Assembly (NCBI GenBank): GCA_031414955.1
Contig: JANOQV010000230.1
Coordinates: 14,332 to 78,331 of the forward strand
Origin: Pedosphaera sp.
GTDB lineage: Bacteria > Verrucomicrobiota > Verrucomicrobiia > Limisphaerales > SIBH01
Reading direction: 5' to 3'
DNA length: 64,000 nucleotides
Made by a program: the position numbers. Within the stretch, counting starts at the first letter, position 1. Every line of letters begins with the position of its first letter. This document shows positions 32,001-38,000 of this stretch, one piece after another.

Positions 32001-35000
32001 GGCACTCCGGCGTGCCCTCGGCGAGGAGCAGACCATTGACCGTGAGGGAGAAGCCTTGGTTGAACAGCACCTGCGCGCACGGCTCGATGGTGAGAGTGGT
32101 TCCGACCGTCACGGTGACGGAACTGGTCACAATGATGGTGGTGCCCGCCGCCCAGATCGTGTTCACGGAAATCTGGCCGCCGACATAGATGACCGGAGCC
32201 TGACGCTGGCCGCTGGCCATGTTGGAGACGCGCGACAGCGCCACGTAGTTGGTGTGCTGCACGCGGTAATAATACTTCTGCCCAGGGATGGCCGACTCAT
32301 CGACGTGATTGGTCGCCTCGGCCGGAAGCTGGGCGATGACCGCCCAGTTCACCGCGTCGGTGGAGCGATGCACCAGCACACCCTCTTCGTTCTGCGAATC
32401 GTCCGTCCACTTCACGACCGGCGCGTTGGTGCCGGAGGAAATCACGGCCACGGCCAAGGGCGGCATCGGGATGCCGCCGAGCGGATAGGTGATGCCCATC
32501 TTCGCGCCGTCGCGTCCGCCGGTCAGCGCGGGCGAACCGGCTTGCAGGCGGTAATCACGCGCCGCCGGATTCACGAAGAGCGGATCAACATTGATGTTGC
32601 CGTCGCCCGGCCAGTTGGTGTTTCCGAAGATGTTGTAGTCGGCGAACAACTGGCTGCCGTTGGCCAGGCCGATGGCCGCGATATTGTTCCACACGATGTT
32701 GTTGTAGGAATTGGTGGTGATGCCGCCGCCGGTCGGCGAGGCCGGATTGACCTTGTTGTAGTTGGTCAAGCCGGAGTCGTTCCCGACAATGGTGCAGTTG
32801 CGCACGCTCACATCGCAGAGCGACTTGGACATCACTCCGGCGTTGCAGGCGTAGATCAAACAGTTGCTCACGATAATGCCGTGGGAAGAGCCGCCGTCGC
32901 CCACGGACACACCCTTGTCGAACGGAAAATCCCACATGATGCAGTTCTCGATGCGCGTGTCGGTGGAGCCGGGAAGGACGCCGGGGCCAATGTCCACGGC
33001 GTCAGCATTGCCGCGGTTGCCGTGGCGATAGGTGCAGTTGCGCGTGTATGATCCGGGCTGCGCGGCATCGAAATCCAGCGCGTCGCCTTCCAGCAGTTCG
33101 AACATGGATTGTTCGACCTGGATGACGCCGTCCCGCACCAGACATTCCCAATAGGAATAAATATGGGCGCGACGCACCTCGAAGAGGCTGGCGAAGCTGG
33201 ACATCATGATGGGCCGGCCGGTCGTACCCGCGCCCGCGCCGGGATCAAAGTCATGAATCGCGGTGTCCTCGATCAACCCATAAGCCCCGGTGGTGGCGTT
33301 CACCTGCGTGCGGGCGATGTCGGCGAAATGAAGTTCCAAGGTGGAGTTCGTGCCCGTGGCCGAGAGCGGCCCCCAGGTGCCGCTCGAAGTCACGTCGATG
33401 GTGAAAAAGACATTCTGCTCGAACGTCCCGTGGGCATAAATCCGCCCGCCGCTCTGCGTCACGATCGACGCACCCGGATTCACCAACACCACCGCCCCAT
33501 TGGCCACCTCCAGAGTCACGTTCGTGGGCACGATCACACTGCCGGTCACATGCAGGATGGTACCCGGATTCGAGGCCAGCACGCTGGCCCCCAACGTCCC
33601 GCTGATGGTGGTCCGTGAGGTCTCGCGAATGATGTTCTGAATACGGTTGGAAAGAAGGTTGCCTGCGGAATCCAGGGCCGCGATGAAAAAGCGGCTGTAG
33701 CCCGGAGCCAGCGCCACGGTGTTGGTCCAGGTTCCGGTGGCCGGATTGAAACTGGATTCATTCCCATTGATCGTCACCCGCGTCGCCCCGGCGATGGTGT
33801 TCGAGCCCGAGAGAGTGACCGAGCTGTCCGTGGTGAGCGCATAAATCCCGTTGTTGGGAATGGCCGCTCCATTCGTCGGCGCGCTCACGGAGAGATCCGG
33901 CACCAGGATTAAATCAGAACTATTCAACGTGCCGTTCAATCCCAGGATGGCCAGCGTATGGTCACCAAGATCCAGTCGTGAACCGATGGCGCCAAGATCC
34001 CACGTCACCGCCGGCAGGCCGCTGGAGCCGAGGGAGGATTCGTGATTGGCGGTCGCCAGCGCCGTGTTGGTCGGTTCATTGCCCGCCGCGCCGGGCGCAT
34101 TCGTGCGGCAAAGTTCCACGCCATCGAGATAAGCCACGAAACCGTCGTCCCAATCCATCCGCAGCAACAAGTGCAGATTCGTATCGAAGCTGCTGTCGAC
34201 CGTGAACACATGGCGCATATAGAGCGTGCGATACGAGTTCTGCATGTCATTCAGGATCGTCTTGCAGTTATTCGTCTCCGCCGCCGTGTCGGCGGAATAA
34301 CCAATGCCGCCCGGCCCGGTCAGCCATTGCCCGCCCAGCGACGCATCGGAGCTAGTTTGCCAGCCGAGGACCGGCGCATTAGTCCCCTTGTGATAACGCC
34401 ACACATCACCTCGGTTCACCACGGGAGTGGGCGCGGTCGGCGGTGTCCCCACCTGAACGGTGAGATGCTGGCCGTGGGCCGAGATCAATCCAAGAACGCC
34501 GGCCAAAGCCGGCAACGTCAGACGTGCGATTCGAAACATAGAATGGCGGATTGTGGCACAACTCACGAGCACTGACAATCGCGCATCCACGAATGAATGA
34601 ACTGTCACACGGCGGAAGCTGGCGGAGGTCCGGCGCAAGAAAATGGTGGGTTGGCAGGGACTCGAACCCTGGACCAACCCCGAAAAGGTTCGGGGCTGCT
34701 CTAACCATCCACCGCCTCAGCGCGCTGTTGAAGCAGGAAGATGGCGAGTTGTGGGTTTTTCTTGCGCTTGAGTTCACGCTCCACGGTACGGGCCTCTGAC
34801 AAACTCGCGGTCTCCCAGGAGACGACCAATTCAAGATTCTGACCCAACCGCGCCGTGGTGTGGGTTTGTCCGCGGCGATGTTCCTCCAACCGGCGCGCGA
34901 GGTCGCTCGTCGAGCCGATGTAGTGCCGGCCGGAATCGCCGCGCAAAATATAGACCCAGGCCATTTGCTGGAAAAAGTGGTGGGTTGGCAGGGACTCGAA

Positions 35001-38000
35001 CCCTGGACCAATGCCTTAAAAGGGCACTGCTCTACCAACTGAGCTACCAACCCATCCGAGGGCCGCGGAAGCTAATCGAGAGGTTTTGGGGTCGCAAGAG
35101 ATATTCCCGGCGCGAATCACGCGCCATCAATCAGCCGCTGCGGTCTCGTCGCTGAAGAGGTAGCGCAGATCGTCCAAGGTCAGGCTCTGGGAGAACTTCT
35201 CCTCGCCCAACACGTCGTCGGCCAGCGCGGACTTGGTCTTCTGCAAGGCGCGGATTTTTTCCTCGATGCTGTCCTTAATCAGGAGCCGGTACGCCATCAC
35301 GTTGCGCGTCTGGCCGATGCGGTGGGTGCGGTCAATGGCCTGGTTCTCGACGGCGGGATTCCACCACGGATCAAAAAGCACGACGTAGCTGGCGGCGGTG
35401 AGGTTGAGACCGAAGCCGCCGGCCTTGAGGGAAATAAGAAACACCGCCGCACCTTCCGCCGCTTGAAACTTCTGCACCAGCTCGCCGCGATTCTCCGTGC
35501 CGCCGGCCAGATAAAACATTGGCCACTTCCGCTTCGTGACCTCGGCGCGCAGAATGTCGAGCATCTCCACGAACTGGGAGAAGACCAGCACCTTGTGGCC
35601 TTCCTCCATGAGCGGCTCGACCTGATCGACCAGCGCCTCCAGCTTGGCGCTGGCCGCCTTCGAGTCGGGCTTCACCAGCCGGGGATGGCAGCAAATCTGC
35701 CGCAGCCGCAGCAACGAAGTGAGGAAGTGGAAGCGTTGCTCGGCCAGTTGCTTCTGGGTCTGCACGCGCAGCAGCATCTGCTGGGCGCGTTTCAGTTCCG
35801 CGCGGTAGAGCGTCTTCTGTTCGCCTTCGATCTCGCAGAACAAATCCTCCTCCACGCGATCGGGCAAATCCTTGGCCACCTGCGACTTGGTGCGGCGCAA
35901 AAGAAACGGACGCACGCGCGCGGCCAGCCGGCGGCGGGCGAACGGATCATCCTTGGCCTCAAACATCTTGGAAAACTGCGCGCGACTGCCGACCGAGCCG
36001 GGCATGGCGAAGGTCATCAGGCTCCACAAATCGGTCAGCCGGTTTTCAATCGGCGTGCCTGAGAGCACGAGCCGGTGCGAGGCCCGCAGGCCGCGCGCGA
36101 TCTGCGCGGTGATGGAACTTGGGTTCTTGATGTACTGGCCCTCATCAAGAATCACCGCCAGCCAGCGTACTTGGATGAGGTTTTCCCCGAGCAGGCGGAG
36201 CTGGTTGTAGTTGATGACGTGCAGATCGGCGGTGGCGAGGTTCTGGGGAAGGTCTTTCGATTCGTTCGCACCCCAGATGCGCACGCGCAGCCCGGTGACG
36301 AATCGCTCCGCCTCCGCGCGCCAGTTATCCATCACGCTCTTGGGGCAGACGACGAGGGAAGTTTGGGGATGAGGTTTGGCGTCCGGGGTCTGGGCTGATT
36401 GCGCGCGCAGATGTTCAAGCCAGGCCAGGGTCTGCAAGGTTTTTCCCAGGCCCATGTCGTCGGCCAGGATGCCGCCGAAACTGTTCGCCGCGAGATAGGC
36501 GAGAAAGTGATAGCCGTCGCGCTGGTAAGGTCGCAACTCGGCGCTGATGGTGGCCGGCACCTCCGGCGTGACGCGCGCCTTGATCTCCCCGGCGCGGCGC
36601 TCGATCTGTTCATACTGCGGCTCGTCGAGAAACTTCTTCGCCGCCTTGTCCGCCAGTTGCAGCGCGTGCAGGCGCTGCGGCTCGGCGGTCAGTTCGCGCG
36701 GATTGAGGCCCAGTTTAGCCAGTTGCTCGTCGTCATCCTCGGTCAGGTTGAACTGCAAACGCTTCCAACCTTTGCCTTCGAGACGGACAAAGGCGCCCCG
36801 CGCGTTCAGCAGCAGCTTCAACTCGTCCTGCGTGAGCGTGGTGTCGTCCACGTCGAGGACCACGCGCAAATCGAACCAGTCGATCTCAGCCTCGGCCTGG
36901 GTCACGTCGAGCCGCACACTGCCGGCCACCGCCTCGGCGGCCAGCGAGGCCAGATCGCCCTTCAACTCCACCTTCACCTGGGGTGGCAAGGACTTGATCC
37001 AGGCCGCAAAGAGCGCGGGAAACTTTTTCGTGACCCGCAGGGTGAACCCGCCGCGATACTGCTCCCACTTCGCTTCCAGGCCCGCCAGCAGGTTGAACGG
37101 ATTGCCCAGCGCGCTGCGGTCGGGGATGACGATGGCCCCGCTCTTCTTTTCTTTCTCGGAAGTCGAGTGACCGCGTTCCCAGGAAAAGCCATTCCAGGTG
37201 TCCTGCACGCGGCCTTGCTCGTCGAGGGCGCGCGGGAGGATGGCGCAGTACTCCGTTTCGGAGCCGGGATAAGTGGGCTTCAAGGCACAAGAAAACTGCA
37301 AGACCATCGGCACAATGCGCACACGCGCGCGCAACCGGGTCGGCATCTCCACTCCGAGCGAATGCAGCAGAGCCACGCCGGCCCGACTTTCAAGCGCCAC
37401 GGCGGGAATCCTGTTCTCAGCCCGCGGATCAAGCACCCCGGCCTGCACCACCGGGCCGCGCAGCACTTCCGTCTCGGTCACGTAAATCGCCGGGCGTCCA
37501 CCCAAAACGCAGAGCATTGGCCCCGCCGGCGTGCCATCCGCCCGGGCCAGACGCATGATGTAATCGCCATTCGCATCCGTCGGCTCGGCCAGATGCCAGC
37601 GCAACGACTCGGCGGGGAACTGGAACGGTTCGCCGCGCGGGTTGACCAGTCGCGAATGCACCGTCGGCAGGCGCACGAGGCGCACCAGCGCGCGCTGGGT
37701 CGTCTCCTCGTAATACTCCAGCCCAAGTCGCGCCCCGTAGAGCAGGCGCTGTTCAAAAATCGGCCAGAGCCATTCCGCCTCGGAGACCAGTTCTGACTCG
37801 CCGGCCTGCAGGCGCCGTTGCAACTCGCGCATCTGGTTTTGTTTCATGGTGGAAAACTCCGCCTGCCCCGGCAGCTTCCACTCCAACTCCGCGCCCTTCT
37901 CGCGCAAGGCCAGCCGCAGATCAACCGACTCGGCCGCCGCGATCTCCGCCGTGAGCTCGGGCGTGTATTTCACCGCCTGGCCCAGCGCGGTCTTCCAACG

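What a model noticed while it worked through the whole genome (the two positions that open the first line are those of the whole stretch)
34644..35053. A 300-bp selfish element: lone 87-aa GIY-YIG nuclease gene inserted in tRNA-Lys with a spare tRNA 3' half
Directly behind tRNA-Lys(UUU) (13 nt gap, same strand) lies an 87-aa GIY-YIG-only gene (g03960), and directly behind that a 34-nt exact copy of the 3' part of the same tRNA (what ARAGORN calls a 63-nt 'tRNA-Glu'); the family's other genomes have the tRNA but not the insert. I read this as a minimal homing element: a free-standing GIY-YIG endonuclease gene that invades tRNA genes at about position 41 (border of anticodon stem and variable loop) and carries its own tRNA 3' half so that the tRNA stays whole. 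New would be a widespread class of ~0.3-kb autonomous mobile elements of bacterial chromosomes aimed at tRNA-Lys and tRNA-Met genes, and a family of very small tRNA-gene-specific nucleases. [...]
Evidence so far: C230, minus strand: tRNA-Lys 49384-49309, g03960 49295-49032 (Pfam GIY-YIG, T5orf172), pseudo-tRNA 49041-48979; tRNA positions 43-76 (34 nt, CCA included) recur 100% identical at 49008-48975. Empty sites: DNA search of the 13 other genomes of the family: 12 match the tRNA-Lys part, 0 match the GIY-YIG part at E<=1e-8. Relatives of the protein: 202 confirmed places, best 80 fetched; 71 of 80 have a tRNA beside the gene, in the close ones ending 5-15 nt before the start codon on the same strand (38 Lys-UUU, 2 Lys-CUU, 23 Met-CAU; distant ones labelled Saccharibacteria or Gammaproteobacteria have other tRNAs just downstream). 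Of 60 loci with the upstream tRNA, 53 have an exact 15-34-nt copy of [...]
(Added by a program. Inside this text positions count along the whole contig: contig position 14,332 is position 1 of the stretch shown here. "Call 12" and the like, gene names such as g00115 and contig names such as C1 are that model's own, and its searches are not shown. The text may have been shortened before it was handed on; [...] marks where a part breaks off. The agent that wrote the report below was given it as the finding of a first reader that could run no searches.)

Follow-up and report, generated by a model that had tools for sequence, protein, structure and literature searches.

The report
Hairpin-ended nuclease cassette splitting tRNA genes
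A tiny DNA-cutting-enzyme gene and an 18-base hairpin sit between a working lysine tRNA gene and a dead piece of it; related bacteria show this is the shortened form of a roughly 400-base selfish cassette that breaks a tRNA gene and brings a replacement, a design I could not find in print.

Summary
In detail: tRNA-Lys(UUU), 13 nt, an intact 87-aa GIY-YIG gene, then an exact copy of tRNA nt 43-76. P is present in 61 of 67 gene-bearing sites.

At 33 of 57 protein-picked sites the full unit is: resident tRNA 1-27, P, spacer, intact tRNA, nuclease, P, resident 43-76. One filled/empty orthologue pair shows that the split halves are the resident allele and the middle tRNA is foreign. The window holds the form without the left end. 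Targets are the tRNA types with GAGCAG-N15-TTGGT (4 of 54 ARAGORN calls here). P also occurs alone, replacing 7-43 nt between CAG and TT(G/C), with no duplication.

Best reading (0.6): a hairpin-recognising nuclease cuts at the anticodon arm and homology repair copies the cassette. No cleavage or movement has been assayed. It works like Ssn/NTS and SegB but fails membership of both. I found no description in 10 literature searches. The scan's own notes report the same design at other tRNAs in other phyla.

The parts
35054..35111 (-). Native upstream (promoter) region of tRNA-Lys; no left-hand palindrome unit here
   Evidence: About 90% identical with the tRNA in congeners (query 290-426; aligned by eye). 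TTGCGA-17-TAGCTT is read by eye and was not called by the consensus scan.
34978..35053 (-). Intact tRNA-Lys(UUU); carries the target motif GAGCAG-N15-TTGGT
   Evidence: ARAGORN; Rfam RF00005 75.2 bits; motif
34965..34977 (-). 13-nt leader between CCA and ATG; expression by read-through from the tRNA promoter is inferred
   Evidence: In relatives the start codon lies 5-27 nt after tRNA nt 73.
34701..34964 (-). 87-aa single-domain GIY-YIG nuclease gene (UPF0213/Slx1-like fold); Y5, Y15, G17, R25, H29 and E62 are conserved
   Evidence: Pfam; alignment; model pLDDT 91; PDB 1zg2 by sequence E 1e-5 and by fold E 3e-4, then Slx1; dN/dS 0.14
34696..34706 (-). D-loop mimic GGTTAGAGCAG (tRNA nt about 18-27); supplies the ORF's TAG stop
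   Evidence: TAG lying 8 nt before P is the commonest stop position (34 cases).
34678..34695 (-). 18-nt hairpin P, CCCCGAACCTTTTCGGGG, in place of anticodon-arm nt 28-42; the conserved end of the element
   Evidence: Present in 61 of 67 ORF-bearing sites. The perfect form CCCCGAAAGCTTTCGGGG makes up 78 of 191 copies. ssDNA fold z -3.9 for 34640-34720.
34644..34677 (-). tRNA nt 43-76, identical to the intact gene; by comparison with relatives, the resident gene's 3' part
   Evidence: allele test L064 vs L423
3469..3544 (-). tRNA-Lys(CUU): same target motif, no palindrome match beside it in this genome

Best explanation
A selfish cassette bounded by two copies of hairpin P: [P - spacer - intact tRNA - nuclease gene - GAGCAG - P]. 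It replaces the anticodon arm (nt 28-42) of a tRNA gene that has GAGCAG before the arm and TTGGT after it, and rescues the host with the tRNA it carries. SHOWN: the architecture, filled and empty orthologous sites, a foreign tRNA allele in one event, purifying selection, and P alone replacing short stretches. INFERRED: the 87-aa nuclease binds a hairpin flanked by CAG and TTG in single-stranded or extruded DNA (P itself, and the anticodon arm as its natural mimic) and cuts beside it. The broken ends pair with a cassette-bearing template and copy it. Pairing with the outer halves gives the full form. Pairing of the left end with the internal tRNA, or later deletion between the 27-nt repeats, gives the window's form. 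Pairing of the right end with the internal tRNA gives ORF-less left scars. Re-cutting of the carried tRNA gives nested and tandem arrays. Short-patch repair pastes P alone.
For: Of 57 protein-picked tRNA sites with room to judge, 33 are full, 20 window-type, 2 left+ORF and 2 bare. Of 49 sites from palindrome-picked metagenome loci, 21 are full, 17 window-type, 9 left scars and 2 left+ORF. L064 (filled) and L423 (empty) share both flanks; the halves are L423's allele and the middle tRNA is another allele; L419 has the same insert. L432 (window-type) and L420 (empty) share both flanks. The motif occurs in 4 of 54 ARAGORN calls in this genome, the same four types that are hit in relatives (the split of CAU into two types is recalled). 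Solo P replaces 7 nt at C11:2546, 14 nt at C11:11150 and a small hairpin at C53:5793 relative to congeners, and 43 nt in G017. The first three were found with a pattern that had no flanks; two have CAG|TTCG borders that also stand in the empty sites, and the third has CAA|TTG. Tandem ORFs at 10 Verrucomicrobiota-labelled loci are 62-99.6% alike, and spacers and ORFs are reshuffled between loci with the same flanks. dN/dS is 0.14 over 110 and 23 pairs. Precedent: SsnA, a 94-aa lone GIY-YIG, binds its hairpin in ssDNA and cuts beside it (PMC11893778). SegB cutting plus recombination makes tandem tRNA+nuclease repeats (PMC13096335).
Against: No cleavage, binding, expression or mobility assay exists. 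A clearly foreign tRNA allele rests on one event (L064/L419); at most full sites the halves and the middle tRNA are the same allele or differ by decay (15 of 53 identical). ORF similarity correlates with the host promoter as well as with the spacer (Mantel 0.34 vs 0.31 for Lys; 0.39 vs 0.37 for CAU), so much inheritance is vertical. Solo P also occurs in genomes with no close ORF detected (G046, G016). The closest pairs show dN/dS 0.73 (4 pairs), and 11 of 85 ORFs are broken. The element was not found in viral contigs or plasmids, so no vehicle is known. How the carried tRNA escapes constant cutting is unexplained.
Confidence: 0.6

Rival explanations
1. Classical free-standing dsDNA homing endonuclease: the enzyme makes a double-strand break in the tRNA gene, and P merely destroys the site at the junctions.
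For: Filled and empty alleles with co-transfer of a tRNA; ORFs cluster by tRNA type (7 label changes vs 53 shuffled); SegB precedent.
Against: The occupied allele keeps an intact target. The 85 family ORFs are 76-88 aa as cut at 88, with no DNA-binding domain. P's outer stem differs from one consensus at only 10 of 610 positions, across a family whose ORFs are mostly 50-70% identical to the query, while the spacer drifts. P moves alone.
Confidence: 0.17
2. P is the true mobile unit (a miniature element mobilised by the nuclease in trans). The tRNA duplications are repair by-products of P hitting an essential gene, and the nuclease gene only hitchhikes.
For: Solo P at non-tRNA sites in several genomes; whole tRNA-Met genes with only the arm swapped for P (L482, L484); the duplication runs past the tRNA end by 3 or more nt in 6 of 38 single-unit loci vs 1.5 by permutation (P 0.0014).
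Against: Spacer, foreign tRNA and ORF arrived as one block in L064 relative to L423; an identical spacer sits in different host flanks (L317/L330).
Confidence: 0.13
3. Scar of an integrase-driven island: the 34-nt repeat is attL/attR and the nuclease gene is leftover cargo.
For: 3' tRNA duplications are typical att sites (own knowledge). The DNA behind tRNA-Lys differs among congeners.
Against: The same P junction at nt 43 recurs at four tRNA types. A left 1-27 half plus P and loss of the anticodon arm are not an att pattern. No integrase lies inside the unit (it is 334 bp here).
Confidence: 0.03
4. RNA-level system: the protein cuts tRNA (or acts through an RNA intermediate with a host reverse transcriptase), and the P-containing pseudo-tRNA is a decoy or template.
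For: P sits exactly on the G27-T43 pair like an anticodon arm; the right junction is precise and the left one variable.
Against: No reverse transcriptase lies in the unit; SsnA did not bind or cut RNA; the pseudo-halves decay; solo P inserts in non-tRNA DNA.
Confidence: 0.07

Closest known systems
Ssn nucleases with NTS/SRM hairpins (Chenal et al. 2025, PMC11893778; abstract, three Results sections, Discussion and keyword passages read)
   Same: Single-domain GIY-YIG of under 100 aa; the gene is flanked by oriented hairpin repeats; solo hairpins are dispersed in the genome. The authors propose NTS-ssnA-NTS as an IS-like element.
   Different: The hairpin sequence differs (SRM pattern 0 of 60). 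The protein lies outside the group of NTS-flanked proteins. The element targets tRNA genes, deletes the anticodon arm and carries a replacement tRNA; the word 'tRNA' does not occur in that paper's main text. The passages I read show no filled/empty sites.
Phage T4/T6 SegB, a free-standing GIY-YIG homing endonuclease (PMC2330249, abstract read; PMC13096335, passages read)
   Same: A GIY-YIG gene beside tRNA genes; cuts within tRNA genes; spreads its own gene with tRNA genes; drives tandem tRNA+nuclease repeats.
   Different: SegB is a phage dsDNA nuclease with a 27-bp site built on the T-loop motif; no hairpin ends or split resident tRNA appear in what I read. That it is larger and has a DNA-binding part is recalled.
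UPF0213 proteins (PDB 1zg2, 1ywl) and Slx1 structure-specific nucleases
   Same: Best sequence and fold matches.
   Different: The PDB titles call the UPF0213 proteins hypothetical. Slx1 is a larger housekeeping enzyme that works with Slx4.
IS200/IS605 and REP-associated tyrosine transposases (as discussed in PMC11893778; otherwise recalled)
   Same: Hairpin ends, dispersed solo palindromes, no target duplication.
   Different: They use HUH transposases. Here a GIY-YIG hydrolase is present and target DNA is replaced (7-43 nt lost).
Fungal mitochondrial free-standing endonuclease genes that insert in a gene and bring a replacement 3' part (recalled, no call)
   Same: The element restores the gene it breaks.
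   Different: They are larger enzymes in protein genes of organelles, with no hairpin ends.

Membership tests
GIY-YIG superfamily | GIY-YIG domain with Tyr, Arg, His and Glu catalytic residues | tested here: met
   Pfam PF01541 46.9 bits, cut-off 22.6; Y5, G17, H29 and E62 invariant, Y15 and R25 at 90% or more in 52 rows; the catalytic roles are recalled
Ssn family | Single domain of about 90 aa | tested here: met
   87 aa; 85 family ORFs of 76-88 aa as cut at 88
Ssn family | Flanked by SRM/NTS repeats | tested here: not met
   The paper's SRM pattern matched 0 of 60 loci, the window included
Ssn family | Member of the cd10448/SsnA clade | tested here: not met
   Indirect test; neither CDD nor SsnA itself was available. 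Three GIY-YIG proteins found beside NTS matches in 80 viral loci form a separate group, align to the query over only 30-39 aa, and have a C-terminal motif absent from 85 of 85 family ORFs.
Ssn family | Site-specific cleavage of ssDNA beside the hairpin | not testable with these tools
   Needs an assay
Free-standing GIY-YIG homing endonucleases (SegB type) | Filled and empty alleles at a homologous site | tested here: met
   L064/L423 and L432/L420
Free-standing GIY-YIG homing endonucleases (SegB type) | Separate C-terminal DNA-binding domain (recalled; modularity stated in PMC11893778) | tested here: not met
   The ORF stops after 87 aa and the model is one domain. The TIGR01453 hit is 20.7 bits vs a cut-off of 56. 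Longer fused forms were not searched.
Free-standing GIY-YIG homing endonucleases (SegB type) | Target lost or altered in the carrier allele | tested here: not met
   The carrier keeps an intact tRNA with the motif
Free-standing GIY-YIG homing endonucleases (SegB type) | dsDNA cleavage and biased inheritance | not testable with these tools
   Needs an assay
Integrase-driven tRNA islands | Integrase plus a simple att duplication | tested here: not met
   No integrase in the unit; split halves with the anticodon arm replaced
Insertion sequences / MITEs | DDE or HUH transposase; target duplicated or conserved | tested here: not met
   The only Pfam hits are GIY-YIG and T5orf172; target DNA is deleted at P

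The most novel reading that the evidence does not exclude
This is a transposase-free, roughly 0.3-0.4-kb autonomous mobile element. An 87-aa hairpin-reading nuclease treats the anticodon arm in single-stranded DNA as a copy of its own end, cuts there, and lets repair paste either the whole cassette or just the 18-nt hairpin, using CAG/TTG microhomology and deleting a variable stretch of target. It would be a new mode of movement ('cut and patch'). It could explain how Ssn-type hairpin repeats multiply, and it offers a panel of very small nucleases with different tRNA-gene specificities.
Probability: 0.35. Interest if true: 0.88.

Novelty: new variant of a known kind. Interest (0 to 1): 0.7.

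Why it matters
If right, bacterial chromosomes carry a class of mobile elements smaller than typical insertion sequences. They break essential tRNA genes, replace them, and so move tRNA alleles between lineages. The comparative evidence here (filled/empty orthologues, a foreign allele, solo hairpins with target deletion) supports the mobility that the Ssn paper only hypothesised for hairpin-flanked GIY-YIG genes, and it names exact oligonucleotide substrates for a test. It also explains recurrent false tRNA calls, such as this 'tRNA-Glu'.

Tried and rejected
No Rfam family other than tRNA reached its threshold. NCBIfam gave nothing above cut-off; PADLOC gave one weak 14.6-bit hit. The Atlas returned only GIY-YIG clusters. 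There was no match in plasmids, and the palindrome pattern had 0 matches in viral contigs. tblastn found no second copy of the gene in this genome.

A pure target-site-duplication model was my reading. It was dropped after searches showed the left halves and a foreign allele, although the small excess of shared flank remains.

The first tree lost rows through a stop-codon filter and was replaced, which is FastTree on 85 columns with many open forks. In one search, 19 of 61 full sites were dropped (no ORF start match, no P, duplicates). One search was a malformed comparison with no result.

Laid contigs showed no usable empty allele or circle: one low-depth joint in X3 has other letters. Empty sites could not be found for 22 further solo P against this genome or for L473. 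Several pattern hits look like ordinary terminators (L479, L481, L494, L496). The SNF2 gene is not linked to tRNA-Lys in the congeners searched, so the window has no two-flank empty orthologue.

Literature: 10 searches found no description. Most hits were seen as listings only. Preprint 10.64898/2026.09.22.753630 (passages) uses SsnA loci only as a benchmark. No supplements were read; those of PMC11893778 could list such loci. Most subscription journals are not in the library.

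
Full report
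OBSERVATION. On the minus strand the window reads: tRNA-Lys(UUU) 35053-34978, 13 nt, an 87-aa ORF 34964-34701, and an exact copy of tRNA nt 43-76 at 34677-34644. The ORF is a lone GIY-YIG domain. It has conserved catalytic-type residues (roles recalled) and a confident model (pLDDT 91), and it is closest to UPF0213 and Slx1 structures. Two public runs of one study assemble the unit unchanged at flank depth. ARAGORN's 'tRNA-Glu' is this pseudo-tRNA. Relatives are labelled Verrucomicrobiota, so I infer the same for the window.

THE CONSERVED END IS P. Of 80 loci fetched by the protein, 59 have an upstream tRNA with GAGCAG-N15-TT(G/T)G(T/C): 34 Lys-UUU, 2 Lys-CUU and 23 CAU. 52 of them have a downstream copy, and the copy follows the local tRNA through 22 sequence variants, window included. 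Among 67 ORF-bearing sites picked by protein or profile, 61 have P before the copy, 5 have no right half in range and 1 has a half without P. P's outer stem departs from one consensus at 10 of 610 positions, while family ORFs are mostly 50-70% identical to the query. Of 191 tRNA-associated copies, 78 are the perfect palindrome CCCCGAAAGCTTTCGGGG and 165 are 18 nt long (this set includes pattern-picked loci). In this genome the target motif occurs in 4 of 54 ARAGORN calls: Lys-UUU, Lys-CUU and two of the three CAU genes. These are the types hit in relatives; calling them elongator Met and Ile2 is recalled, not tested. ORFs cluster by tRNA type (7 label changes vs 53 shuffled, minimum 5), so switches are rare.

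THE FULL ELEMENT. A metagenome scan by the palindrome pattern (80 of 120 stretches fetched) showed a second unit upstream: tRNA nt 1-27, P, TTGGT plus about 40 nt, then the intact tRNA. I re-examined all sets (only sites with 110 nt upstream and 380 nt downstream were counted):
- Protein-picked, 57 sites: 33 full, 20 window-type, 2 left+ORF, 2 bare.
- Order-level, 10 sites: 2 full, 8 window-type.
- Metagenome, 49 sites: 21 full, 17 window-type, 9 ORF-less left scars, 2 left+ORF.
- One genus picked by a tRNA pattern, 21 sites: 14 empty, 7 with the ORF. This count includes the centre genome, chosen because it is filled, and one empty site from unpublished genome G322.
The DNA before the left half has the host promoter; the spacer after P is different.

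WHICH HALF CAME IN. L064 (filled) and L423 (empty) share both flanks. L064's outer halves are L423's allele and pair with each other, while the middle tRNA is another allele; L419 carries the same insert. So the resident gene was split at 27|43 and the intact tRNA arrived with the ORF. This is one event. Other allele-like differences are small (L033, L035, L052, L299, L331), and most differences are decay of the halves (15 of 53 full sites have both halves identical). L432 (window-type) and L420 (empty) also share both flanks. The window has its native promoter and no left unit, so it is the form without the left end; its own 5' tRNA part may be resident.

SIGNS OF REPEATED ACTIVITY. Tandem ORFs at 10 Verrucomicrobiota-labelled loci are 62-99.6% identical. 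Left units also stack (three in G310). Loci with the same host flanks carry different spacer/ORF combinations (L045, L359, L364), and one spacer is identical in different flanks (L317, L330). dN/dS is 0.14 for pairs at 72-90% identity (110 and 23 non-independent pairs) and 0.73 for 4 closer pairs; 74 of 85 ORFs are open over 75 codons. Against strong horizontal spread, ORF similarity tracks the host promoter as well as the spacer. The element is patchy. 12 of 301 order genomes have a close ORF (87 bits or more; 94 have some GIY-YIG hit). 35 of 301 have the P pattern against 2 for the reversed control, and 6 of 401 phylum genomes have the strict pattern.

P MOVES ALONE. A flank-free pattern found four P sites in this genome. 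The three away from tRNA replace host DNA relative to congeners: 7 nt at C11:2546 (GCAGCAG|...|TTCGT), 14 nt at C11:11150 (CCAG|...|TTCG), and a smaller hairpin at C53:5793 (CAA|...|TTG). In G017, P replaces 43 nt between GCCAG and TTGTC (this site was found with a flanked pattern, but the flanks also stand in the closest empty relatives). No duplication is seen. Solo P also occurs in genomes without a detected close ORF (G046, G016), which may be loss, incomplete assembly or another mobiliser.

MECHANISM. Shown: anatomy, target motif, filled/empty sites, one foreign-allele event, selection on the ORF, replacement by P. Inferred: the nuclease reads a hairpin with CAG 5' and TTG 3' in single-stranded or extruded DNA, cuts beside it, and homology-directed repair from a cassette-bearing template produces the full, window-type, scar, tandem and P-only products, depending on which repeat each end pairs with (0.6). 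SsnA gives the biochemical precedent: it binds its hairpin and cuts upstream, on ssDNA only, and bases next to the palindrome are decisive (PMC11893778). SegB gives the precedent for cutting in tRNA genes followed by recombination and tandem repeats (PMC2330249 abstract; PMC13096335 passages). Rivals: classical dsDNA homing (0.17), P as the only mobile unit (0.13), an RNA-level system (0.07), an island scar (0.03).

COMPARISON AND NOVELTY. It works like NTS-ssnA-NTS and like SegB but fails membership of both. The SRM pattern matched 0 of 60 loci. NTS-flanked proteins form a separate group and align over only 30-39 aa (an indirect test). There is no DNA-binding domain, and the target survives in the carrier. 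Ten literature searches found no description; supplements were not read. The scan's own notes describe the same design at other tRNAs and in other phyla. They are unchecked and not support; one gave the Ssn paper, and one the idea of a carried replacement tRNA, which I then tested on my own loci. Verdict: real, a new variant of selfish nuclease elements, interest 0.7.

Noticed in passing
L134, L138, L139, L147, L148: Sister cassettes at initiator-type tRNA-Met with a different hairpin (TCCCGC...GCGGGA) behind GGCTCATAA. Hairpin and flanks resemble the NTS consensus of PMC11893778, a hint that NTS repeats may descend from such a tRNA cassette.
   Followed up: partly
L133, L135 (tRNA-Asn); L142, L150 (tRNA-Gly): Further sister cassettes with their own hairpins and breakpoints in the same order.
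   Followed up: no
L141, L143, L149: GIY-YIG genes of about 84 aa bounded by terminal inverted repeats (CACCCCRTGAGATA ... TATCTCACGGGGT), apparently inside protein-coding genes; IS-like, with no transposase seen.
   Followed up: no
L054, L057, L059, L060, L063, L066, L072: Mirror arrangement in mostly CPR-labelled contigs: copy of tRNA nt 1-10/15, CCCCGA...TCGGGG palindromes (nested in L054, L072), ORF, whole tRNA.
   Followed up: partly
L521, L523, L524 (G146, G190): The same P sits directly behind the CCA end of other tRNA genes.
   Followed up: no
L482, L484: The left unit is a nearly whole tRNA-Met gene in which only the anticodon arm is swapped for a 21-nt P.
   Followed up: partly
L124 / L491 (G275): Permuted order: decayed P unit, ORF, intact tRNA-Lys, then P and the 3' half.
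   Followed up: no
G000 C221:370-2479: Cluster of seven tRNA genes with atypical D-loops, probably from a mobile element.
   Followed up: no
G000 C53:5600-5900 (L439): The solo P lies in a hairpin-rich dispersed repeat with 34-117 matches in each of five congeners.
   Followed up: partly
G000 C3:16663 and C119:19290: Two related 18-nt hairpins (CCCCGAC...GTCGGGG) in a shared repeated sequence; their relation to P was not tested.
   Followed up: no
L003, L005: Records titled Akkermansia and Bifidobacterium carry ORFs and tRNA alleles like the window's; the labels may be wrong.
   Followed up: no
L077:3165-3205: The GAGCAG flank of P is preceded by a long AG dinucleotide run.
   Followed up: no
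window 30316-34677 (-) and 35127-38720 (-): Flanking genes: a 1453-aa ORF whose mechanical start lies inside the tRNA copy (the true start is probably later), and a SWIM-SNF2 helicase.
   Followed up: no
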